From Corallococcus sp. bb12-1 (lineage in GTDB: Bacteria > Myxococcota > Myxococcia > Myxococcales > Myxococcaceae): a DNA stretch of 64,000 nt. Shown here piece by piece: positions 35,672 through 46,029 of this stretch (positions within the stretch are counted from its first letter, which is position 1; each line of letters starts with the position of its first letter). The stretch is taken from assembly GCF_026626765.1 (NCBI RefSeq), contig NZ_JAPNJZ010000012.1, positions 205,012-269,011 on the forward strand. The letters are read 5' to 3'. The translations under genes were made by a program, and so were the position numbers. The notes below the pieces were generated by a model. The model searched no databases. It worked only from the letters and a program-made list of their open reading frames with translations, and was not told where the DNA came from.

Positions 35672-36319
35672 ATGGGCACAGGGGGAGTGTTGGCACCCGA
35701 AACCTCAGACGAGCGGCTGATGCTCGCCTTCCAGGCGGGAGACGCGCGCGCGTTCGAAGCGCTGATGCGAAAGCACCGCGCGCCGGTGTTCAACTTCATC
35801 CTGCGCTTCGTCGGGCAGCGGGCGCGGGCGGAGGACGTGCTGCAGGAGACGTGGCTCAAGGTGGTTCGCAGCGCACGGGAATACACGCCGAAGGCCCGGT
35901 TCACGACCTGGCTGTACACCATCGCGAGGAACCTCTGCGTGGACAGCACGCGCAAAGAGAGCTACCGCCAGACGACATCCTTGGAGGCCCCCGTCGGTGG
36001 CACGGACGGGGACGAGGGACGTCCGCTGGGCGAGGGGCTGCCGGACTCCGGTGCCAGTCCGGAGCGCGGGGCGCACAACGCGCGCCTGCGGCCCCTGCTG
36101 GAGCGGGCCCTCGCGGGCCTGCCGGAAGAGCAGCGCGAGGTGTTCGTGTTGCGCGAGTACAGCGGCATCCCGTTCAAGGAGATCGCCGAGGTGACGGGCG
36201 TGTCCGAGAACACGGTGAAGAGTCGGATGCGCTACGCGTTGGAGGGACTGCGCCGTCGTCTGGGAGAACTGGGCGTGGATGGTGACCTGTCGGAGGATGG
36301 AAGGACGGTGGCGGGATGA
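35672..36319 (+). CDS. ECF (group IV) sigma-70 factor
   Basis: Region 2 (…FNFILRFVGQRARAEDVLQETWLKVVRS…) and region 4 HTH (…EVFVLREYSGIPFKEIAEVTGVSENTVKSRMRYALEGLRR…). Confidence 0.85.
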   Translation: MGTGGVLAPETSDERLMLAFQAGDARAFEALMRKHRAPVFNFILRFVGQRARAEDVLQETWLKVVRSAREYTPKARFTTWLYTIARNLCVDSTRKESYRQTTSLEAPVGGTDGDEGRPLGEGLPDSGASPERGAHNARLRPLLERALAGLPEEQREVFVLREYSGIPFKEIAEVTGVSENTVKSRMRYALEGLRRRLGELGVDGDLSEDGRTVAG

Positions 36320-37761
36320 GTGCCCAGAATGCCCATGCGCACGAGGACCGGCTCCTCGACTTCGCCTACGGCGAGCTGCCTGCGTCGGAGGCCCAGTCGC
36401 TGGAGCAGCACGTCCAGGGCTGCGCGCGCTGCTCCAAGGCCCTGTCGGACATCCGCGGCGTGCGCTCCACGATGGCGCACCTGTCGGTCGAACCGCCGCC
36501 GGACGCCGGCCTGGAATCGCTCCTGGCGTACGCGCAGCAGTCCGCGCGCCGCGCCGCCGCGGGGCCCGAACCAAAGCCCTCGCGCTGGCGCCGCTGGCTG
36601 TTGCCCGTGGTGGGCCTGGCCTCGGTGAGCACCTTCGGCTTGCTGACGCTGGAGGTCAGCAAGGACGTCAACCTCCAGCCGACGCTGACCCAGAAGGCCG
36701 AACCGGCGGCAGCGAAGGCGGACCGGACCCGGTCCTATGACGACGCCCCGGCCCGGCCCGCGGCGCCCGCGGCCATGCAGGCCGCGCCGCCCCCCGCGCC
36801 CATGGAGGGCGCGCTGCTGGACCGTGCGCAGCGGATGCAGGCGGAAGCCACCGTGGGCACCAAGGGTGGGGGCGAAGGTCGGCCCTCGGACTGGATGAAC
36901 GCGGGCAGTGGTGGCGCGCTGCTGGAGCGGCGTCGCGGGGCGGAGTCGAAGAAGCAGATGTCCGGCTTCAGCAAGTCGAAGTCGGAAGCGGCGAGGGACG
37001 CGCTCTCGGCCCCGTCGGCGGTGATGGACGACGAGGCGAAGGACTCCGCGCTCGCGCAGGGCTCGCTCGTTGGGAGCCGCTCGGGCCTCGGTGTCAGCAA
37101 TGGTATCGGCAATGGGGGCGGTGGCAGCGACAAGCTCCGCAAGGAAGAGGAAGGCTCGCTGCGGCTGGGCGGCGCGTCCTATGGGCGGGGCCTCGCCAAG
37201 GACGACGACGAGCTCGCGGAAGAGGCCGCGCCACCGCCGCCTGCGGATTCAGTGGTCGCCGCCGCGCCCATGGCGCCTTCCACGCCGCCGATGCCCACGG
37301 GCTCCATGCCCACGGGCTCCGTCCAGCGCAATCAGCAGGCTCCTGGCAAGGCGATGGCCGCCGCCGAGCAGATGCCCGCCACTGTTTCCAAGCCGAAGTC
37401 CGCGCCCGCGGAGAAGGCGGCCCGCGCCGATGCGATGACGACCGCGCGCGATCTGTCGCGTCAGGCGCAGGAAGCCGCGAGCCAGGGCGACCGCGCTCGG
37501 GAGTCCCAGTTGCTGCGCGCCGCGCTCGCGGCCGGGGCCACCGGAAGTGAACGCCTGTCGCTGCTCTCCCGCCTGTGCGAATCGGAGTACGCCCAGGGCC
37601 GGAGGACCGAAGGCGCGGAGGTCTGCGCGCGCATCCTCTCCGAGGCACCCGATTCCGAAGCGGCCCAGCGGGCCGGGCTGTGGCTGGGGCAGGGCGGGGC
37701 GGCGACCGTCCCCGTCAAGAAGGCCCCGGCCCAGGCCGCCCCTCTGCCGTCCAAGCAGTAG
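36316..37761 (+). CDS. Anti-sigma factor (zinc-finger HxxxCxxC N-terminal domain, one TM, large Ala/Pro-rich periplasmic region)
   Basis: ATGA overlap with the ECF gene. LEQHVQGCARCSKAL motif. TM WRRWLLPVVGLASVSTFGLLTL. Confidence 0.75.
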   Translation: MSAQNAHAHEDRLLDFAYGELPASEAQSLEQHVQGCARCSKALSDIRGVRSTMAHLSVEPPPDAGLESLLAYAQQSARRAAAGPEPKPSRWRRWLLPVVGLASVSTFGLLTLEVSKDVNLQPTLTQKAEPAAAKADRTRSYDDAPARPAAPAAMQAAPPPAPMEGALLDRAQRMQAEATVGTKGGGEGRPSDWMNAGSGGALLERRRGAESKKQMSGFSKSKSEAARDALSAPSAVMDDEAKDSALAQGSLVGSRSGLGVSNGIGNGGGGSDKLRKEEEGSLRLGGASYGRGLAKDDDELAEEAAPPPPADSVVAAAPMAPSTPPMPTGSMPTGSVQRNQQAPGKAMAAAEQMPATVSKPKSAPAEKAARADAMTTARDLSRQAQEAASQGDRARESQLLRAALAAGATGSERLSLLSRLCESEYAQGRRTEGAEVCARILSEAPDSEAAQRAGLWLGQGGAATVPVKKAPAQAAPLPSKQ

Positions 37762-37811: not shown

Positions 37812-38114
37812 ATGACCGATGCAGCGGGCCTCCGGAGCCTGGATACTGGGAGGATGACGCCGGTCGTGGATCATCCCCCCGTGAGCACCCCCCGGAAGAC
37901 AGCGTCGCGCTCCCTGCGCCGGGCCAGTCGGGGTCAGGCGATGGTCGAGTACTCGGCGCTCAACTGGGTGCTGCTCGTGGCGCTCGTCGTCGGTGCCACC
38001 GTGAAGATCCAGTGGTCCGATGACCGGCAGAGCAACGTCATCGACCTGTTCCTCGAGGCGTACGAGATCTATTACGACTCGTTCTACTTCGTGTTGAACC
38101 TGCCGTTCCCCTGA
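37812..38114 (+). CDS. Flp/Fap-family type IVb prepilin (Tad pilus subunit)
   Basis: …RRASRG/QAMVEYSALNWVLLVALVVGATV… matches the Flp processing motif G/XXXXEY followed by a hydrophobic helix. Mature length about 59 aa. Alternative start ATG 37854. Confidence 0.6.
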   Translation: MTDAAGLRSLDTGRMTPVVDHPPVSTPRKTASRSLRRASRGQAMVEYSALNWVLLVALVVGATVKIQWSDDRQSNVIDLFLEAYEIYYDSFYFVLNLPFP

Positions 38115-38341: not shown

Positions 38342-39157
38342 ATGTTGAAGGGTAAGACCCCGCTCGTCGTCGCGCTGGTGCTCGGTTTGCTCGCGGGCAT
38401 CGTGGCCTATTCGGCCATCAAGAAGAAGGAATCGGATGTGCGTCGCGGGTGGAATCTGGTGCCCGTGGTGGTCGCGGGCACGGACATGCCCGAAGGGACG
38501 GTCATCACGTACGAGATGATCTCCCAGCGCTCCGTGCCCGAGCAGTTCGTCACCTCGTCGGTGGTGAAGCCGGACTCGGCCAACTACATCGTGAACCAGA
38601 AGGTGTTGGTGGCGCTGCAGGCCGGCGACCCCATCCTCTGGAGCCAGTTCGAGACGACGAAGGCCGCCGAGCGCCTGTCGACGAAGGTGCAGAAGAAGGC
38701 GCGCGCCATCACCATCGAGGCGAAGCACACGACGTCGGTGGGCGGCTGGATCCGTCCCAACGACCACGTGGACATCATCGGCACGTTCCGCGATCCGCAG
38801 ACGGACGAGAGCGTCGCCGTGACGCTGCTGCAGAACATCATCGTGGTCGCCACGGGCAAGATCACCGGCACCACGAACATCAACCTCATCCCGGAGAGCC
38901 AGCGCGAGTACTCCAACGTGTCGCTGATGGTGCTGCCGGAAGAGGCGGAGATCCTGGTGCTGGCAGCGGAGCTGGGCAACCTGACCCTGTCCTTGCGCAA
39001 CGAGGACGACGTGGACCTCATCGAGGAGCGCGGTCGCGCCACCATCAGCACGCTGCTGTCCGGCGAGCGCACCCGGGTGCTGGAGCAGAAGCGCCGGGAG
39101 ATCATCCAGATCATCAAGGGCGGCACCGGCGAGAAGGCCTCGGCCGGCTCTCCGTAG
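38342..39157 (+). CDS. cpaB: Flp pilus assembly protein CpaB/RcpC (SAF-domain)
   Basis: N-terminal TM (LVVALVLGLLAGIVAY). SAF-like region. Characteristic …ITIEAKHTTSVGGWIRPNDHVDII… CpaB core. Confidence 0.85.
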   Translation: MLKGKTPLVVALVLGLLAGIVAYSAIKKKESDVRRGWNLVPVVVAGTDMPEGTVITYEMISQRSVPEQFVTSSVVKPDSANYIVNQKVLVALQAGDPILWSQFETTKAAERLSTKVQKKARAITIEAKHTTSVGGWIRPNDHVDIIGTFRDPQTDESVAVTLLQNIIVVATGKITGTTNINLIPESQREYSNVSLMVLPEEAEILVLAAELGNLTLSLRNEDDVDLIEERGRATISTLLSGERTRVLEQKRREIIQIIKGGTGEKASAGSP

Positions 39158-39229: not shown

Positions 39230-40075
39230 ATGCTCGCAGGTATCGTCCTCCTTCTCGTCACCGGCTCGGTGTTCTTCTTCAGCCTGGTGATCTTCAGCGT
39301 CCTGTCGAAGGCGTATGAGCAGTACCAGGAGCGCTACGTCGCCAAGTCGATGAACGACTTGAGCGACATGTTCCTCTTCATCGACGCGCGGCAGATGTTG
39401 ATCCTCAACATCGCCATGATGTGCCTCCTGGGCATCCTCAGCTACATCATCTTCAACCCCATCCTGGCGTTGATCGCGACCATCTTCGGCTTCTTCCTGC
39501 CGATGCTGATGGTGAAGCACTACCGCAAGCGCCGGATCAAGAAGTTCAACGTGCAGCTCGTGGACGCGCTGCAGGCCATGGCCAACGCGTTCAAGGCGGG
39601 CCTCACGTTCCCCCAGGCCATCGAGCACGTGGCGCGCGAAGCAATGCCGCCGCTGTCCCAGGAGTTCGGCCTGTTCGTGAAGGAAGTGAAGCTGGGCGTC
39701 CCCCTGGAAGAGGCCCTGGTGAACATGGGCCGCCGCGTGGGCAGTGACGACCTGGAGCTGGTGGTGGTGTCCACCAACATCGCGCGCCAACTGGGCGGCA
39801 ACATGGCGGAGATGTTCGAGACCATCTCCACGGTGATCCGCGAGCGCTTCCGCCTGGAGGGCAAGATCGACGCCCTCACGTCCCAGGGCAAGCTGCAGGG
39901 GTGGATCGTCGCGGCCATGCCGGCTGTCCTCGGCATGGTGCTCAACTACATGCGCCCGGACCTGATGGAGCCGATGTTGGATCACCTCTTCGGCTACATC
40001 CTGGTGACCATCATCGCCATCATGGAGATCATGGGCATCCTCATCATCCGGAAAATCGTCAACATCGACATTTGA
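39230..40075 (+). CDS. tadB: Tad pilus inner-membrane platform protein TadB (T2SS-F domain)
   Basis: N-terminal TM. T2SSF domain pattern (…LVDALQAMANAFKAGLTFPQAIEHVA…). C-terminal TMs. 281 aa. Confidence 0.85.
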   Translation: MLAGIVLLLVTGSVFFFSLVIFSVLSKAYEQYQERYVAKSMNDLSDMFLFIDARQMLILNIAMMCLLGILSYIIFNPILALIATIFGFFLPMLMVKHYRKRRIKKFNVQLVDALQAMANAFKAGLTFPQAIEHVAREAMPPLSQEFGLFVKEVKLGVPLEEALVNMGRRVGSDDLELVVVSTNIARQLGGNMAEMFETISTVIRERFRLEGKIDALTSQGKLQGWIVAAMPAVLGMVLNYMRPDLMEPMLDHLFGYILVTIIAIMEIMGILIIRKIVNIDI

Positions 40076-40088
40076 AACGAGGCGCACC

Positions 40089-40979
40089 GTGCAGGAGATT
40101 CTGACAGCCTTGTTGATCGGTGGCTCGACGCTGCTGACCGTGGGGGCCTTTACGTTCCTGGGCGTGGGCCTCTACACCAACGTCCTGGAGCACTTCCTCA
40201 CGGAGGTCCGCGACGAGTCCGCGGGCGGCATGAAGGGCGTGGGCTCCGTCGCCATCCGCAAGTTGGGGGCGATGAACCGGCGCTTCATGTGGCCGGGCTA
40301 CGAGTCCAAGACGCGCCGCAAGCTCATCAAGGCGGGCGAACCGTCGCAGTACAAGCCCGAGGACATCATGGCGCTGCAGGAAGTCAGCGCCTTCCTGGCC
40401 CTGCTGGCCGGCCTCTTCGTCATCAACGGCATCGGGATGAACCTGGCCTGGTCGCTGCTGGTGATGCTGTTGGGCCTGTTCTATCCGCTCATCTGGTTGA
40501 ACGATCAGGTGAAGCGCCGTCACCTGGCCATCAGCCGCGCGCTTCCGTACAACATCGACCTGCTGACGCTGTCGGTGGAAGCGGGCATGGACTTCACGGG
40601 CGCGCTGGCGAAGGTGGTGGAGAAGGGTCGCCAGGGGCCGCTGCGCGAGGAGCTGCAGCTGGTGCTCAAGCAGCTCAAGATGGGCAAGACGCGTGAAGAG
40701 GGCTTGAAGGGCATGATCGCGCGCGTGGACCTGCCGCCCCTGACGACGTTCGTCACGGCGCTGATCCAGGCGGACAAGATGGGCACCAGCCTGGGCAAGG
40801 TGCTGCGCATCCAGTCCACGCAGATGCGCATCGACCGGACGCAGCGCGCGGAGAAGCTGGCGGGTGAAGCGCCGGTGAAGATGCTCTTCCCGCTCATCGC
40901 CTGCATCTTCCCGACGGTGTTCATGGTGCTCTTCGGGCCCATCGTGTTCCAGTTCATGTACGGCAACGTCGGGGGCTAG
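40089..40979 (+). CDS. tadC: Tad pilus inner-membrane platform protein TadC (T2SS-F domain)
   Basis: T2SSF domain (…LPYNIDLLTLSVEAGMDFTGALAKVVE…). GTG start. 296 aa. Confidence 0.85.
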   Translation: MQEILTALLIGGSTLLTVGAFTFLGVGLYTNVLEHFLTEVRDESAGGMKGVGSVAIRKLGAMNRRFMWPGYESKTRRKLIKAGEPSQYKPEDIMALQEVSAFLALLAGLFVINGIGMNLAWSLLVMLLGLFYPLIWLNDQVKRRHLAISRALPYNIDLLTLSVEAGMDFTGALAKVVEKGRQGPLREELQLVLKQLKMGKTREEGLKGMIARVDLPPLTTFVTALIQADKMGTSLGKVLRIQSTQMRIDRTQRAEKLAGEAPVKMLFPLIACIFPTVFMVLFGPIVFQFMYGNVGG

Positions 40980-41052
40980 TCCTCTGCCGATCCTGCTCAC
41001 CATCACCCAGGGGCTCCAGGTTGGTAGGGAGCTCGCCTTCGAGCAGGCCGAG

Positions 41053-44000
41053 GTGAAGATCGGCCGGACCTCGGAGAACGACCTGGTGCTGCATGACCAC
41101 GGGGTCTCCCGGCGTCATGCCCGCATCACGGCGAGGGACGGGCAGTACTTCGCCGAGGACGTGGGCAGCGCCAACGGCACGCAGCTCAACGGCCAGCCGC
41201 TCGGCGGGCAGAAGCAGCTGCGCGACGGGGATCGCATCACCGTCGGGCCGGTGGAGTTCACCTTCGTCTGGATGCCGCAGGACGACGAGGCGGACGTCAC
41301 CCGGCCCATCCGCAGGGTGCTCGCGCCGGCGCATGCGCAGGTGTCGCCGCCGCAGGGCCTGGAGCAGGCCTCGCTCGCGGAGATCGAAGCCGCGCCCACG
41401 AGCTACCAGCAGTCGCTGCCGGTGATGGCGAGGCCGTCCTTCCTGCCGACCCCGCAGCGTTCCGGGGCCGCGGTGAAGAGCCTGGCGACGCCCGCGGCGC
41501 CGCTGGCGCCCCCTCCCACGAAGAAGCCGGAGGCCGTGGTGCCTCCGCCGAAACGGCCCTCCGCTCCCGACCTTCCGGCGGTGGGCGCGCCCGCGCAGGG
41601 CCGCGCTTCGGGGCCGCGCCTTCCCGCGCTGGGAGCGCCCACGTTGAACAGGGCCGCCCGTCCGGCAGGGGACGCCTCCTCGCAGGGCCGTGCATCCGGT
41701 CCGGGCCTCCCTGCTGGCGGAGCATCCACGTCAAACCGGGTCGCGCCTCCCCTAGAGGGAACTCCCGCGCAGGGCCGTGCATCCGGTCCGGGCCTCGCCG
41801 CTGTCGGAGCGTCCACGCCGAACCGGGCCGCGCCTGACGTGCAGGGGGCGCCCGCGCAGGGCCGCGCTTCGGGGCCGGGTCTCCCCGTCGCGGGTGGTTC
41901 CGCGAAGGGCGGACCTTCTGCCCCAGGCCAGTCCGCCGCTTCAGGCAAATTCTCGGCACCGGGCCCAGCCTCGCCTGACGCCTCCTCCGCACCGAAGCGG
42001 GTCGCCCCTCCGGGCCCGCCCGTGCTCGATGCCGCCGCGCCGAAGAAAGCCCCGCCGGGCCTGCCCTCGGTCGGCGCTCCCGCGCTGAACCGTCCCTCCC
42101 TGGGGCGCGGTGCCGCGCGAGGGGCCGAGGCGGCGAAACCTCCGTCGCTCCAAGCGGACGCCGCCGCCGCGCCGCCTCCGCCGGGCCCGCCCGCTCCGCA
42201 CAGGGATGCGCCGTCTGTCTCTCCCCCCGCGAGTGGAAGGCCGCCCGCGTCGCCTCCGGTGAACAGGGGCGCGGTGGCTTCGGTACCCTTGCTGCCCTCT
42301 GTTCCGGCGCTGACGCCTCCCGTGGCGCCCACGCCCGTGCGGGGTCCGTCAGCTCCAGCTCCCGGCCTTCCCGTACTGTCTCCTTCCGGGTTCGTGCCGC
42401 CTCCGGTGACCGCTCCTGTCGCTTCATGGGACGCGCCTCCGGCGGGCCTGTCCCCGGTGGATCCGGACGAGCCCGAGGAGCGCACGCTGATGGCGATTCC
42501 CGTGGTGCAGTCGCCTGGGCCTGTCCTGGCTGCTCCTCCGGTGGCGCCCCCCGCGTTGTCCTTCGTGGATCCGGACGAGCCCGAAGAGCACACGCTGATG
42601 GCGATCTCCACGGTGGACTCGCCGGAGCCCCTGCTTCCTGCGCCCCCGGTGGCGTTCCCCGCGCTCGCCTTCGTGGATCTGGAGGAGCCCGAGGAGCGCA
42701 CGTTGATGGCGATCTCCGCGGTGGACTCGCCTGAGCCCCGGACCCAAGCCGCACCGTCATTCGGCCCTCCGGAGGCAGCGGCCCTTCCGTCGGTGGCGGA
42801 GGAGGAGCCCGAGGAGCACACCGTCCTCGACCTGCGGCCCATCGTCCCCGTCAGTCCGCTGGTGCCGCGCCCGGTGTTGCATGGGGCGCCTCCACCGAAG
42901 GCGGCTGCCCCTGCCTTCTCCGCGGAACCGCCGACGTACGTGGGGCAGGACCAGGACATCCCTTCCGCCCCGCCGGACGACGCCTTGTCCGACGTGCAGA
43001 CCTTCATCGGCAAGGACGGACCTGGCGCGCCCCCTGTTCTGGCGCCTTCCCCGGCGCGAAGCGCTCCGGTCGCTCCGCCTCCGCCTTTTGATCCGGCCTT
43101 TGATCCGGTGACGTTCGTGGGCAAGGACCGGCCGGACGCGGCGGCGCCCCCCGCATCGCTGGCCGCTTCACCGCCGGCCGCGGAGGCCGGCCTGCTGGCC
43201 CTCCTCTCTTCGGACGAAGGCGACGCCACCCAGCCCCTCCCGCCGTCCGACCCGGACGCCTCCTCCTCCCAGCCGGCGCGCTCCGTGACGGTCGTCGCCA
43301 AGGTCGAACCCTCGACCGCCGCCGACAAGGCCCGGAAGCGGCGCCAGCTCGCCCGCACGCTGGGCGGCCAGTTCGTCCTCTTCTGGAATCGCCAGTCCCT
43401 GCTCCGCCGCGTCGGCTACGCGTCCCTCGCGGGTGTCGTCGTGCTGGCGGCGCTGTTCGGCGTGGTGACCGCCGTGACGTCCCAGTCGCTCCGGCTGCCG
43501 GGCCGGGAGCCCTTCAAGCTGGGCCTGGAGCCGGTGCCGGACTCGTTCGGCTTCGGCCAGGGCGTGCGCTGGTCCCACGTAGACGACAAGGTCTTCGACT
43601 TCCGCTTCGTCTCGCCCACGCGCGCGGTGGCGGTGCTGCACTACCAGGCCAGCAACATCTCCAAGGATGAGGTCAACCTGTCGCTCAACGGCGTGTCCCT
43701 GGGCTGGGTCCCGCCGGACACGGCCCAGACGCAGGAGCGCGAGCTGGAGCAGGTGATGCCCCCGGGCCTGCTGCGCCGCAACGAGAACAACCAGCTGCTC
43801 TTCGACAACGCCCTCAACCCGCCCGGTCAGGAGAGCTGGCGCATCTGGAACCTCCGGCTGGAGATCATCCCGGTGCCGGAGCTGCCGCCGGCTCAGCTGT
43901 TGGCGTCCGCTCGGGAAGCCGCGATGGCGGGTGCCCGGTTCTACGAACTCAAGGACGTGGGCGGGGAGAACCTCTTCAGGGCCTGGCAGCAGTACCGCGC

Positions 44001-44253
44001 CGCGTGGATCACCCTGGAAGCGCTGGATGAGAAGCCGGAGCTCTACGAGGACGTCCGGGAGCGGATCGCCCGGATTTCAACGGAGCTGGACCACCGGTGC
44101 GGTCAGCTGATGCTGGAATTCCAGCAGGCCGTCCAGTACCGGAGTCGGCGTCAGGCGGTCGCGGCCCTGGCGGAAGTGCGGAGACGCTTCCCTAGCACCG
44201 AGCATCGCTGCCACAATCTCGCGCTGGAAAAAGCCTATGAGCATGAACTCTAG
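41053..44253 (+). CDS. FHA-domain protein with long Pro/Ala-rich repetitive linker, one TM, and about 270 aa C-terminal (periplasmic) domain
   Basis: FHA core …IGRTSENDLVLHDHGVSRRHARI…GSANGTQLNGQPL…RDGDRITVGPVEF. TM LAGVVVLAALFGVVTAV near residue 800. FHA similarity continues in-frame upstream to about 40981 with no canonical start codon. Confidence 0.8.
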   Translation: MKIGRTSENDLVLHDHGVSRRHARITARDGQYFAEDVGSANGTQLNGQPLGGQKQLRDGDRITVGPVEFTFVWMPQDDEADVTRPIRRVLAPAHAQVSPPQGLEQASLAEIEAAPTSYQQSLPVMARPSFLPTPQRSGAAVKSLATPAAPLAPPPTKKPEAVVPPPKRPSAPDLPAVGAPAQGRASGPRLPALGAPTLNRAARPAGDASSQGRASGPGLPAGGASTSNRVAPPLEGTPAQGRASGPGLAAVGASTPNRAAPDVQGAPAQGRASGPGLPVAGGSAKGGPSAPGQSAASGKFSAPGPASPDASSAPKRVAPPGPPVLDAAAPKKAPPGLPSVGAPALNRPSLGRGAARGAEAAKPPSLQADAAAAPPPPGPPAPHRDAPSVSPPASGRPPASPPVNRGAVASVPLLPSVPALTPPVAPTPVRGPSAPAPGLPVLSPSGFVPPPVTAPVASWDAPPAGLSPVDPDEPEERTLMAIPVVQSPGPVLAAPPVAPPALSFVDPDEPEEHTLMAISTVDSPEPLLPAPPVAFPALAFVDLEEPEERTLMAISAVDSPEPRTQAAPSFGPPEAAALPSVAEEEPEEHTVLDLRPIVPVSPLVPRPVLHGAPPPKAAAPAFSAEPPTYVGQDQDIPSAPPDDALSDVQTFIGKDGPGAPPVLAPSPARSAPVAPPPPFDPAFDPVTFVGKDRPDAAAPPASLAASPPAAEAGLLALLSSDEGDATQPLPPSDPDASSSQPARSVTVVAKVEPSTAADKARKRRQLARTLGGQFVLFWNRQSLLRRVGYASLAGVVVLAALFGVVTAVTSQSLRLPGREPFKLGLEPVPDSFGFGQGVRWSHVDDKVFDFRFVSPTRAVAVLHYQASNISKDEVNLSLNGVSLGWVPPDTAQTQERELEQVMPPGLLRRNENNQLLFDNALNPPGQESWRIWNLRLEIIPVPELPPAQLLASAREAAMAGARFYELKDVGGENLFRAWQQYRAAWITLEALDEKPELYEDVRERIARISTELDHRCGQLMLEFQQAVQYRSRRQAVAALAEVRRRFPSTEHRCHNLALEKAYEHEL
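41575..41900. repeat. About 3.6 tandem copies of an 87-90 bp in-frame repeat (AQGRASGPGLPA…NRAA) in the FHA gene
   Basis: cagggccg(c/t)gc(t/a)tc(g/c)gg(g/t)ccg recurs at about 41593, 41683, 41770 and 41857. Confidence 0.7.
42445..42790. repeat. Three tandem copies (plus a partial fourth) of a roughly 108-111 bp in-frame repeat (DPDEPEERTLMAI.VVDSPEP…PPVA.PAL.FV)
   Basis: gatccggacgagcccga(g/a)gagc(g/a)cacgctgatggcgat recurs at about 42457, 42568 and 42676. Confidence 0.7.
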
Positions 44254-44280: not shown

Positions 44281-46029
44281 GTGAACACCATGTCGAACGG
44301 TCCTCCCCCAGCCCGCCGAAGGCCCACTTCGGGTACGCCCTCTTCCGGGACCGGACAACGCGCGCCGGTCCGTCGGTCGACCGCCGGTGTCTCCGCGGCG
44401 AAGCCCGCGAAGCTCGTGGTCATCGCGGGCCCCAGCGAGGGCGCGGAGTTCCCGCTCTCCGAGCTGGAGTACACGGTCGGCCGCGCCTCCGACAATCCCA
44501 TCTGCCTTCAGGACACGTCCGTCTCCCGCAAGCACATCACGCTGCGCAAGGAGTCCGCAGGCTGGTACGTCAGCGACATGAAGTCGGGCAACGGCACGCT
44601 CGTCAACGACGAGCCCGTCACCGACGAGACGCTGCTGGCCAACGGCGACGTCATCACGCTGGGCGACTCGGAGATGCGCTACGAGGACGTGGCCAACAGC
44701 ACCGCCAAGGTGCAGGCGCCGCCGTCGGGCCCCAGGCCCCGTCCGTCCACGGGCGGGAGCCGTTCCTCCCCGGCGGTGCCCGTGCGTCCCGGCCCCGGTC
44801 GCGCGCGCCCGCAGACGTCGCGCGCCTCCGCCGCCGCGGAGCAGACGCCGGAGATGCAGCGCAAGAAGCTGCGGATGAAGCTCGCGGGCGTGGGCGTGGT
44901 GGTGGTGCTCCTCGCCGGCCTGGGCGTCGCGCGCACCCGCATGCAGAAGCAGCAGGAGGAGCAGGTCCGCATCGAGCAGGAGCAGCTCGACTACCGCGCG
45001 CAACTGGGCGCCCTCTTCCAGGAGGCCAAGAACCTGGTGCGCGAGGGCCAGTGGCAGCAGGCCAAGGTGAAGTTGATGGAGCTCCAGGAGCAGGCGCCCG
45101 AGTACCCCGGCGTGGCCGACTACCTGAAGGCCGCGGAGAAGGAGATCCCCAACCAGGGACACCTGACGGCGGCCCAGTCGGCGATGACCAAGGGGGAGCT
45201 TGCCTCCGCGCAGGCGTCGCTCGCCAAGGTGGGCAGCGACACGCAGTTGTACGAGCAGCTGAAGACGGCCCGCAGGGCGCTGACCAACGCGGCCGACGCA
45301 CGCACGAAGGAGGCCAACACGCTGATGGCCACCCGTCAGCTGGAGTCGGTGCAGAAGGCCAAGGCCATCACCGACGACGTGCTGGTGACCTTCCCGGAGC
45401 ACCGCGACGGCAAGCTCATCAACGAGGAGGCCGCGCGCATCATCGCGGATCTGACGCGTCCGGAGCCCGTGCGGGTGGCGGCGGCGCCCAAGCCCTGGGA
45501 GCCCGCGGTGGACCGGTTCCGCGACGGTGACATGACCGGCGCGGTGGCCATCCTCAACACGTGCCTGGGCAAGACGCCCCAGTGCAAGCAGTACATGACG
45601 CAGATGACGGAGTTCGGGAACCTCTACAAGAAGCTGGAGGACCTGGACGCCAAGGGCCTGACGCGGCTGCTGGCGCTCGACAAGGACATCACCGACGGCC
45701 GGGGCAGCAAGATGGCGCGCAACGCGGGCACCCGCGCGGCGACGACCTTCTACAAGAGCGCCGCCGCCGCGAAGGCCTCCGCGCAGTACACGCGCGCGAT
45801 GGAGCTCGCCCGCCGCGCGCTCCAGGCGGACCCCAACCACACGGGCGCCGCCAACATCGTCAGCGACCTGCGGGCCAAGGCCAAGGACCTGTACATGCAG
45901 GCCTACTCCATCAAGGACTCCAGCCCGGACGAAGCGCTGCCCCAGTTCAAGGACGTCGTCTCCATGACGCCGCCGGACGACGAGCTGCACGGCAAGGCCC
46001 AGGGCTGGGTCGAGAAGCTGTCGCGATGA
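44281..46029 (+). CDS. FHA-domain membrane protein with C-terminal TPR-like/helical domain
   Basis: FHA (KLVVIAGPSEGAEFPLSELEYTVGRASDNPICLQDTSVSRKHITL…SGNGTLVNDEPV…). TM GVGVVVVLLAGLGVA. Stop overlaps the xseA start (ATGA). Confidence 0.8.
   Translation: MNTMSNGPPPARRRPTSGTPSSGTGQRAPVRRSTAGVSAAKPAKLVVIAGPSEGAEFPLSELEYTVGRASDNPICLQDTSVSRKHITLRKESAGWYVSDMKSGNGTLVNDEPVTDETLLANGDVITLGDSEMRYEDVANSTAKVQAPPSGPRPRPSTGGSRSSPAVPVRPGPGRARPQTSRASAAAEQTPEMQRKKLRMKLAGVGVVVVLLAGLGVARTRMQKQQEEQVRIEQEQLDYRAQLGALFQEAKNLVREGQWQQAKVKLMELQEQAPEYPGVADYLKAAEKEIPNQGHLTAAQSAMTKGELASAQASLAKVGSDTQLYEQLKTARRALTNAADARTKEANTLMATRQLESVQKAKAITDDVLVTFPEHRDGKLINEEAARIIADLTRPEPVRVAAAPKPWEPAVDRFRDGDMTGAVAILNTCLGKTPQCKQYMTQMTEFGNLYKKLEDLDAKGLTRLLALDKDITDGRGSKMARNAGTRAATTFYKSAAAAKASAQYTRAMELARRALQADPNHTGAANIVSDLRAKAKDLYMQAYSIKDSSPDEALPQFKDVVSMTPPDDELHGKAQGWVEKLSR

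What the first reader, a model, noticed from the sequence alone, without database searches (positions are those of the whole stretch)
40977..41056. FHA-domain homology extends about 70 nt upstream of the first canonical start codon
The first ATG/GTG/TTG in frame is GTG 41053 (MKIGRT…). The upstream in-frame sequence PLPILLTITQGLQVGRELAFEQAEV is exactly what the first β-strands of an FHA domain look like (LxIxxGxxxGxxF.L). This frame stays open back past the tadC stop at 40977-40979 with no canonical initiator. The likely explanations are a non-canonical start (CTG 40984/40993 or ATC), a +1 frameshift or coupling out of tadC, or a sequence error.
Basis: seen in the sequence. Interest (0 to 1): 0.55.

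Follow-up and report, generated by a model that had tools for sequence, protein, structure and literature searches.

The report
Conserved CTG start of FHA gene
The FHA-domain gene after kilH/tadC in this Corallococcus Tad-like (Kil) predation locus most likely starts at a rare CTG codon four bases past the upstream stop, a position conserved in every related locus found, so the "missing start" is real but is an unusual start codon and an annotation problem, not a new mechanism.

Summary
The FHA frame is open from TGA 40876 to GTG 41053 with no ATG/GTG/TTG. The 23 codons before GTG 41053 encode strands β1-β2 of the FHA fold.

I compared 45 orthologous loci (34 distinct sequences) from Corallococcus, Myxococcus, Pyxidicoccus, Citreicoccus and uncultured relatives.
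- The codon equivalent to CTG 40984 is always CTG (26) or GTG (8). M. xanthus DK1622 has GTG, and its annotated 484-aa protein starts there (MPILLTITQ…).
- Several lineages have an in-frame stop 1-3 codons upstream of it.
- Three lineages have no canonical start at all before the GR motif.
- Purifying selection begins at the very next codon (dN/dS 0.34, against 1-1.9 in the other frames).
- An SD-like G-run lies 6-9 nt upstream everywhere. In the window it is GGGGG, -8.6 kcal/mol, in the best 6% of the window.
- GTG 41053 is not conserved (GTC, ATC or CTT elsewhere).

The tadC and FHA frames relate in all three possible ways across lineages, which rules out a conserved frameshift or fusion. 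Thirteen Corallococcus assemblies agree, which rules out a sequencing error.

The window's protein is WP_267574849.1 (Corallococcus sp. bb12-1), which RefSeq starts at ATC 41002. RefSeq uses five different starts across this family. Best reading: a CTG initiation codon, probably coupled to tadC termination. This is a new member of a known kind, of modest interest.

The parts
40089..40979 (+). tadC/kilH-like inner-membrane platform gene (T2SSF domain); its stop is TAG 40977-40979
   Evidence: ORF list. Pfam PF00482, E 1.7e-18. Gene order matches KilB-KilG-KilH of M. xanthus cluster 2.
40971..40975 (+). SD-like GGGGG, with an 8-nt spacer to CTG 40984; it lies within the last codons of tadC
   Evidence: Duplex with the generic anti-SD is -8.6 kcal/mol, in the best 6% of 18-nt windows of the whole window. 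A G-rich or GAGG element 6-9 nt upstream of the equivalent codon occurs in all 34 genome sequences analysed, even where the tadC C-terminus differs.
40984..40986 (+). Proposed initiation codon CTG, 4 nt after the tadC stop
   Evidence: The equivalent codon is CTG (26) or GTG (8) in 34 distinct orthologous sequences and never anything else. It is the annotated GTG start of M. xanthus DK1622 ABF92065.1, MPILLTITQ….
40987..41052 (+). 22 codons (PILLTITQGLQVGRELAFEQAE) encoding FHA strands β1-β2, upstream of the first canonical start
   Evidence: dN/dS is 0.34 in this frame against 0.98 and 1.9 in the other frames. Synonymous variation starts at the first of these codons. The stretch aligns to β1 of GarA/OdhI. 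The AF2 model has strands at residues 3-9 and 16-19.
41002..41004 (+). ATC used as the start codon in the RefSeq record of this very protein (WP_267574849.1, MTQGLQ…)
   Evidence: The window protein with M at 41002 is identical to P0032. There is no SD (+0.3 kcal/mol). This start would cut β1 in half.
41053..41055 (+). GTG, the first canonical start in frame; most likely an internal Val codon
   Evidence: It is not conserved: GTC in L016/20/24/26/28/L037, ATC in L031/33/40/43/47, CTT in L041. Its SD energy of -4.7 kcal/mol is unremarkable (best 37%).
40984..41271 (+). Complete N-terminal FHA domain
   Evidence: Pfam PF00498 and PF16697. PDB matches. AF2 strands up to residue 96.
40984..44253 (+). 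Proposed full coding sequence of the FHA protein (1089 aa plus stop): FHA domain, a long Pro/Ala-rich repeat linker, a hydrophobic segment (43411-43476), and a conserved C-terminal domain. It is the orthologue of M. xanthus MXAN_4649.
   Evidence: The gene-order match to Seef et al. 2021, supplementary file 1, is.

Best explanation
The FHA-domain gene downstream of tadC/kilH starts at CTG 40984, a near-cognate initiation codon read by initiator tRNA. This gives MPILLTITQGLQ…, and the Met is probably removed because Pro or Gly follows. The ribosome is positioned by the GGGGG Shine-Dalgarno-like run at 40971-40975. Because the tadC stop is only 4 nt upstream, ribosomes terminating on tadC are probably handed over (termination-reinitiation coupling). 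This would compensate for the weak codon and tie synthesis of the FHA scaffold to KilH.

Shown by comparison: the position of the N-terminus, the coding signature beginning right after it, the SD-like element, and the absence of any conserved alternative.

Inferred: that CTG is actually decoded as the start, and that coupling occurs.

The GTG/CTG alternation means the M. xanthus clade uses a canonical codon at the same site.
For: (1) The codon is CTG or GTG in all 45 loci (34 distinct sequences: 26 CTG, 8 GTG). GTG arose in two separate lineages, the M. xanthus group and L041.
(2) In the M. xanthus group, that GTG is the only canonical start upstream of the FHA core; the next one is 8 codons beyond the GR motif. 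All 15 listed members of the M. xanthus cluster, including DK1622, are 484 aa; the three whose N-termini were read (DK1622 among them) start MPILLTITQ.
(3) In-frame stops lie 1-3 codons upstream of it in the M. xanthus group, L014/18/22, L030-33 and L041/42/45/47, so the ORF cannot begin earlier there.
(4) L033, L042 and L043 have no ATG/GTG/TTG at all between the upstream stop and the GR motif.
(5) Columns from -25 onward show synonymous variation (Pro CCC/CCG/CCT/CCA; Leu CTG/CTC/TTG; Arg CGT/CGG/AGG). Columns at -27 and upstream show many amino acids and stops. dN/dS is 0.34 for codons -25 to -4 and 0.38 for the first five, against roughly 1-1.9 in the other frames.
(6) SD/anti-SD energy is -5.6 to -11.2 kcal/mol before this codon in all 34 genome sequences analysed. 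It is about 0 before ATC 41002 in most (down to -5.4 in the four most distant MAG loci) and -4.7 before GTG 41053.
(7) β1 begins at residue 3-4 of the CTG-initiated protein. Many unrelated FHA proteins start their domain within 2-8 residues of the N-terminus.
(8) CUG supports initiation in E. coli at about 1-2% of AUG (bioRxiv 10.1101/063800).
(9) RefSeq already calls this CTG as the start in some orthologues: C. macrosporus WP_347402472.1, Myxococcus sp. AM011 WP_255203568.1 and M. qinghaiensis WP_256569730.1.
Against: There is no experimental N-terminus for any CTG-bearing species. CTG/GTG alternation also occurs at an ordinary internal Leu/Val column (+7), and several internal Leu codons are equally invariant, so codon identity alone proves little. 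The SD-like G-run partly overlaps conserved tadC codons (…GNVGG*), so part of its conservation may come from tadC. CUG is a poor initiator in E. coli, and its efficiency in Myxococcota is unknown. A few lineages have an in-frame canonical codon slightly upstream, inside the tadC 3' end (GTG at -34 in L015/L025; TTG at -31 in L037/L040); those species might use it. The anti-SD sequence used is the generic bacterial one, not read from this genome.
Confidence: 0.75

Rival explanations
1. Translation starts at GTG 41053 (alone, or in addition to CTG 40984). This would give a protein that lacks FHA strands β1-β2. The upstream conservation would then be irrelevant to the product, or would belong to a minor isoform.
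For: It is the first canonical start. It is the start in many database entries (MKIGRT…). It has a weak SD-like AGG (-4.7 kcal/mol). The codon is GTG in most Corallococcus and Myxococcus loci.
Against: The upstream 22 codons are under purifying selection in this frame and form part of the fold. The codon is GTC, ATC or CTT in at least 11 loci, including M. xanthus. Its SD energy is ordinary for this genome (best 37%).
Confidence: 0.08
2. Translation starts at another near-cognate codon inside the conserved peptide: ATC 41002 (the RefSeq call for this genome), ATC 40990 or CTG 40993.
For: RefSeq WP_267574849.1, which is identical to the window protein, begins at ATC 41002. ATC/ATT is conserved at that column in all loci. 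AUC initiates at about 1-2% of AUG in E. coli.
Against: There is no SD before 41002 (+0.3 kcal/mol). The five codons upstream of it show synonymous variation and a dN/dS of 0.38, so they are translated. Column -24 (40990) is TTT/TTC and column -23 (40993) is CTC/CGT/CGG in other lineages. The M. xanthus protein starts six codons earlier. This start would halve β1.
Confidence: 0.08
3. Recoding out of tadC: a +1 frameshift near GGG GGC TAG, or stop-codon read-through in the lineages where the frames coincide, would produce a TadC-FHA fusion.
For: In Corallococcus the FHA frame stays open for 61 codons across the tadC 3' end. A G-run immediately before a stop codon loosely recalls the prfB frameshift site (own knowledge).
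Against: The frame relation between tadC and the FHA gene is 0, +1 or +2 depending on lineage, and the gap is 3-11 nt. In-frame stops sit just upstream of the CTG/GTG in many lineages. Columns upstream of -26 are not conserved in the FHA frame. GGC to GCU is not a re-pairing slip. The one fused ORF found (P0058) comes from an assembly with obvious frameshifts.
Confidence: 0.02
4. A sequencing or assembly error has removed a canonical start codon.
For: None beyond the absence of a canonical start.
Against: The junction sequence is identical in 13 independently assembled Corallococcus genomes, and the same CTG appears in other genera and in metagenomes.
Confidence: 0.01

Closest known systems
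M. xanthus DK1622 FHA domain protein ABF92065.1, taken to be MXAN_4649, the gene after kilH in Kil cluster 2 (Seef et al. 2021, PMC8460266)
   Same: Same gene order: KilB/CpaB, KilG, KilH, FHA protein, FHA-TPR protein. The N-terminal FHA domain is 71% identical to M. xanthus strain AM003 (L026), which sits in the same 90%-identity cluster as the DK1622 protein, and the C-terminal domain is conserved. The N-terminus is at the same column (MPILLTITQ).
   Different: M. xanthus uses a canonical GTG where the window has CTG. The M. xanthus protein is 484 aa against 1089 aa here, because of an expanded Pro/Ala-rich repeat linker. I inferred the locus-tag identity from gene order and did not look it up.
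Near-cognate bacterial start codons (E. coli infC and pcnB AUU; annotated CTG/ATT/ATC/ATA starts; Hecht et al., bioRxiv 10.1101/063800)
   Same: A single-base departure from AUG at the first codon position, preceded by an SD; CUG measurably initiates in E. coli. IF3 discriminates against such codons (PMC2268962).
   Different: Initiation at this CTG has not been demonstrated. No autoregulatory logic like that of infC is evident. The infC and pcnB examples are from my own knowledge, not from a tool result.
Translational coupling by termination-reinitiation in polycistronic operons (Yoo and RajBhandary 2008, PMC2268962)
   Same: The stop of the upstream gene lies 3-11 nt before the downstream start in every lineage, with no room for a terminator or promoter.
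   Different: Dependence of FHA translation on tadC translation was not tested. An SD-like element is present here, whereas that study stressed SD-less reinitiation.
FHA-TM-periplasmic-domain scaffolds of secretion machines (T3SS YscD/PrgH; Pfam PF16697)
   Same: N-terminal cytoplasmic FHA fold matching PF16697, followed by a linker, one hydrophobic segment and a conserved C-terminal domain. Seef et al. report an HHpred hit of MXAN_4649 to PrgH.
   Different: The system is Tad-like, not a T3SS. I did not analyse the C-terminal domain for PrgH/YscD ring-building motifs.

Membership tests
FHA domain (Pfam PF00498; whole-fold model PF16697) | Profile match above the curated threshold | tested here: met
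   PF00498: 70.8 bits against a cut-off of 20.7. PF16697: 64.8 bits against 33.2, covering profile positions 2-91 of 94 from ATC 41002.
FHA domain (Pfam PF00498; whole-fold model PF16697) | Conserved phosphothreonine-binding residues (G-R, S-x-x-H, N-G) | tested here: met
   G27 R28 S42 H45 N64 G65 are invariant in alignment A2. The role of these residues is from own knowledge.
FHA domain (Pfam PF00498; whole-fold model PF16697) | β-sandwich that includes the N-terminal strands β1-β2 | tested here: met
   GarA/OdhI structures align from residue 4. The AF2 model has strands 3-9, 16-19, 23-27 and onward, but only at pLDDT 70.
Kil (Tad-like) cluster 2 of Myxococcaceae, MXAN_4649 orthologue | Position directly downstream of kilB-kilG-kilH and upstream of an FHA-TPR gene | tested here: met
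   Pfam domains of the window's neighbouring genes, the table in Seef et al., and the same order in L037-L039.
Kil (Tad-like) cluster 2 of Myxococcaceae, MXAN_4649 orthologue | Role in contact-dependent prey killing | not testable with these tools
   MXAN_4649 itself is listed as of unknown function.
Gene with a non-canonical (CUG) initiation codon | No canonical start can yield the conserved N-terminal sequence, and the near-cognate codon sits at the conserved N-terminal column | tested here: met
   The codon is GTG at the same column in M. xanthus.
Gene with a non-canonical (CUG) initiation codon | Ribosome-binding site at functional spacing | tested here: met
   GGGGG with an 8-nt spacer, -8.6 kcal/mol, best 6% of the window; conserved across lineages. 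A generic anti-SD sequence was assumed.
Gene with a non-canonical (CUG) initiation codon | Experimentally mapped N-terminus or initiation site | not testable with these tools
   Needs N-terminomics, TIS profiling or mutagenesis.
Programmed frameshift or read-through fusion | Conserved frame relationship and slippery or recoding motif between the two ORFs | tested here: not met
   Frame offsets of 0, +1 and +2 all occur. Stops lie just upstream of the start column, and there is no conservation upstream in the FHA frame.
Termination-reinitiation translational coupling | Upstream stop within a few nucleotides of the downstream start | tested here: met
   The gap is 4 nt in the window and 3-11 nt in all loci.
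Termination-reinitiation translational coupling | Downstream translation depends on upstream translation | not testable with these tools
   Needs a premature stop placed in tadC together with a reporter.

The most novel reading that the evidence does not exclude
The CTG is not merely tolerated but maintained. On this reading, a deliberately weak, IF3-sensitive start codon, usable mainly by ribosomes arriving from kilH, sets the stoichiometry of the FHA scaffold relative to the Kil inner-membrane platform. It could also make Kil-machine assembly responsive to the activity of the unusual myxobacterial IF3 (Dsg). The M. xanthus clade would have escaped this control by switching to GTG.
Probability: 0.12. 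Interest if true: 0.55.

Novelty: new member of a known kind. Interest (0 to 1): 0.3.

Why it matters
There are three practical points.

1. The RefSeq model of this protein (start at ATC 41002) and most orthologue models are probably wrong at the N-terminus. Five different starts are in use for one orthologous group. Truncated models remove one or two strands of the FHA domain, which affects structure prediction, construct design and N-terminal tagging in a system under active study (Kil, contact-dependent predation).

2. It is a clean, comparatively well-supported case of a CUG start conserved across several genera of Myxococcaceae and uncultured relatives (one labelled Archangiaceae). A canonical GTG sits at the same site in a sister clade, which offers a natural experiment on how start-codon strength is tolerated inside an operon.

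3. It is a useful test case for start-site prediction in high-GC genomes.

It does not reveal a new mechanism.

Tried and rejected
- **Sequencing error:** rejected. The junction is identical in 13 Corallococcus assemblies.
- **+1 frameshift or read-through fusion with TadC:** rejected, because the frame relations are not conserved. The only fused ORF in the databases (P0058) is a frameshift-ridden assembly artefact.
- **Upstream canonical starts** (GTG at -34 in L015/L025 and M. stipitatus-type annotations; TTG at -31 in L037/L040): these are by-products of the tadC codons GGT GAG and GTT GGG. They are lineage-specific, and the residues they would add are not conserved.
- **A conserved mRNA structure around the junction:** none found. 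The fold z-score is +0.37 against shuffles, and there is no Rfam family anywhere in the window.
- **Codon-identity statistics as proof:** rejected. Other internal Leu codons are just as invariant, and column +7 also alternates CTG/GTG.
- **Selection for CTG specifically:** cannot be shown. With pairwise dS of about 0.5-0.9, two C-to-G changes and no change to A or T fit neutral drift among NTG codons under GC bias equally well.
- **Second protein search with a distant N-terminus:** gave only 3 hits. One of them, P0044, begins MPFQLTIS at the same column, but no DNA is on record for it, so its context is unknown.
- **The representative search:** dominated by multi-FHA proteins. It was useful only for showing that FHA domains often start within 2-8 residues of the N-terminus, and for finding P0145.
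- **The paper on reinitiation at non-canonical codons (PMC4648390):** it concerns eukaryotic expression and was not used.
- **An initiator tRNA in the window, to inspect its anticodon stem:** no tRNA genes are present.
Full report
**What is in the sequence.**
The window carries a Tad-like pilus operon.
- cpaB (38342-39157; SAF and RcpC domains).
- Two T2SSF platform genes (39230-40075 and 40089-40979).
- A large gene with an N-terminal FHA domain, running to 44253.
- A second FHA-TPR gene (44281-46029).

This order matches Kil cluster 2 of Myxococcus xanthus: KilB = MXAN_4652, KilG = 4651, KilH = 4650, an FHA protein = 4649 and an FHA-TPR protein = 4648 (Seef et al. 2021, PMC8460266, supplementary file 1).

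The window protein with Met placed at ATC 41002 is identical to WP_267574849.1 / MCY1042936.1 of Corallococcus sp. bb12-1. The source is therefore that genome or an identical one.

**Checking the observation.**
tadC ends at TAG 40977-40979. The FHA frame is open from TGA 40876 and contains no ATG, GTG or TTG until GTG 41053. The only near-cognate codons are CTG 40984, ATC 40990, CTG 40993 and ATC 41002.

The upstream peptide is part of the FHA fold.
- Pfam's short FHA model starts exactly at V41053, but the whole-fold model PF16697 aligns from ATC 41002.
- Solved GarA/OdhI FHA domains align from residue 4 of a CTG-initiated protein.
- An AlphaFold2 model of only moderate confidence (pLDDT 70) puts strands at residues 3-9 and 16-19, and places V41053 inside the third strand.

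**Comparative evidence.**
One scan of species-representative genomes gave 33 orthologous loci. They come from Corallococcus, Myxococcus, Pyxidicoccus, Citreicoccus and uncultured Myxococcaceae/Archangiaceae. A metagenome scan and one contig look-up added 12 more. I numbered codons from the Gly of the invariant IGRT motif, so the window's CTG 40984 is codon -26.

- Across 34 distinct sequences, codon -26 is CTG in 26 and GTG in 8, and never anything else.
- The GTG cases form two separate groups: the M. xanthus/virescens clade and the metagenomic lineage L041.
- In the M. xanthus group, this GTG is the only canonical start upstream of the FHA core. All 15 listed members of the M. xanthus cluster, including DK1622 (ABF92065.1), are 484 aa; the three whose N-termini were read (DK1622 among them) begin MPILLTITQ.
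- In-frame stop codons lie one to three codons upstream of -26 in many lineages, for example 'tag gcc CTG' and 'tag cgc ccc GTG'. The ORF cannot begin earlier there.
- Three lineages (L033, L042, L043) have no canonical start anywhere between the upstream stop and the GR motif.
- GTG 41053 (codon -3) is GTC, ATC or CTT in at least eleven loci.

**Where coding begins.**
The column-by-column table shows the signature of translated sequence starting at codon -25.
- Codon -25 has four synonymous Pro codons, or three synonymous Gly codons.
- Codon -23 has Leu CTG/CTC or Arg CGT/CGG/AGG.
- Codon -22 has Leu CTG/CTC/TTG.
- Columns at -27 and upstream carry many different amino acids and stops.

Pairwise Nei-Gojobori estimates give dN/dS of 0.34 for codons -25 to -4 and 0.38 for the first five. 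The same nucleotides read in the other two frames give 0.98-1.9, and the FHA core gives 0.22. The pairs are not independent, so these figures are descriptive only. Because tadC ends upstream of codon -26 in every lineage, this constraint cannot come from tadC. The result excludes ATC 41002, CTG 40993 and GTG 41053 as the sole start.

**Ribosome-binding site and coupling.**
A G-rich element (GGGGG, GGGGGG or GAGG) lies 6-9 nt upstream of codon -26 in all lineages. This holds even where the TadC C-terminus differs (…GNVGG* against …GELA*).
- The predicted duplex with a generic anti-SD is -5.6 to -11.2 kcal/mol.
- Before ATC 41002 it is about 0 in most loci, and at best -5.4 in the four most distant MAG loci.
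- Before GTG 41053 it is typically -4.7.
- In the window, the value for CTG 40984 (-8.6) is in the best 6% of all 18-nt windows. It equals or exceeds those of kilG and kilH and is close to that of kilB (-9.3). The value for GTG 41053 is in the best 37%.

The tadC stop lies 3-11 nt before codon -26 in all loci (4 nt in the window), so termination-reinitiation is physically plausible. There is no special RNA structure (z = +0.37) and no Rfam match.

**Rivals.**
- *Frameshift or read-through fusion:* contradicted, because tadC and the FHA gene are in the same frame, +1 or +2 depending on lineage. The one fused database ORF is an assembly artefact.
- *Sequence error:* excluded by 13 concordant Corallococcus assemblies.
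- *Lineage-specific canonical codons a few codons upstream* (GTG -34, TTG -31): these arise from the tadC reading frame, and the residues they would add are not conserved.
- *A minor second initiation at GTG 41053 in Corallococcus:* cannot be excluded.

**Limits.**
No experiment shows that CTG is decoded as a start in these organisms. In E. coli, CUG initiates at roughly 1-2% of AUG (bioRxiv 10.1101/063800), and IF3 discriminates against such codons (PMC2268962).

Codon identity at -26 is not statistically compelling on its own, because other Leu codons are equally invariant and column +7 also alternates CTG/GTG. Nor can selection for CTG be distinguished from neutral drift among NTG codons under GC bias. 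The argument rests on five things taken together: the position, the upstream stops, the onset of coding constraint, the SD, and the canonical GTG in M. xanthus.

**Comparison with what is known, and novelty.**
Non-canonical bacterial starts and translational coupling are both established, and the gene family (MXAN_4649-like FHA protein of the Kil system) is known. RefSeq has already extended this protein upstream, but inconsistently. Across the orthologous group it uses GTG -3, ATC -20, CTG -23, CTG -26 and GTG -34, sometimes with two versions in one species: C. terminator at 1066 and 1083 aa, and C. macrosporus at 1052 and 1055 aa.

The contribution here is to fix the most probable start (CTG 40984) and to show that it is conserved across the family. 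I rate this a new member of a known kind. Interest is 0.3, and confidence that CTG 40984 is the physiological start is about 0.75.

Noticed in passing
window 37854-38114 (+): An 86-aa ORF preceded by GGGAGG. It carries a Flp-pilin-type processing motif (G/QAMVEY) followed by a hydrophobic stretch. It is probably a Flp/KilK-like pilin gene just upstream of cpaB/kilB.
   Followed up: partly
window 41590-41887 and 42457-42739 (+): Two in-frame tandem arrays inside the FHA gene's Pro/Ala-rich linker: 87 nt x3.4 (QGRASGP every 29 aa) and 108 nt x2.6 (EPEE[RH]T every 36 aa). Orthologue length ranges from 484 aa in M. xanthus to 1089 aa here, so the linker expands and contracts rapidly.
   Followed up: partly
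window 40984-41055; proteins P0001, P0009, P0023, P0032-P0040: RefSeq models of this orthologous group use five different start positions. In some species there are two coexisting versions: C. terminator at 1066 and 1083 aa, C. macrosporus at 1052 and 1055 aa, M. eversor at 626 and 643 aa.
   Followed up: yes
window 43411-43476 (+): A single 22-residue hydrophobic segment (VGYASLAGVVVLAALFGVVTAV) lies between the linker and the conserved C-terminal domain. This suggests a bitopic membrane protein with a cytoplasmic FHA domain, like YscD/PrgH. Topology was not tested.
   Followed up: no
window 35672-36319 and 36316-37761 (+): A probable ECF-type sigma factor gene and a downstream Cys/His-rich (putative zinc-finger anti-sigma) gene overlap by ATGA, a canonical coupled junction. 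They lie upstream of the pilus genes. Domains were not checked.
   Followed up: no
L019, L029 (codons -29 to -26 region): In the M. eversor-type junction (…gcg tag ggg ATG gtc ct CTG…), an out-of-frame ATG lies between the tadC stop and the CTG. It opens a short ORF that ends at the TGA overlapping codons -3/-2. Its significance is unknown.
   Followed up: no
P0058 (metagenome-derived protein, 575 aa): An apparent kilH-FHA fusion protein in the database. It is explained by multiple frameshift errors in a low-quality assembly and is not evidence for a natural fusion.
   Followed up: yes
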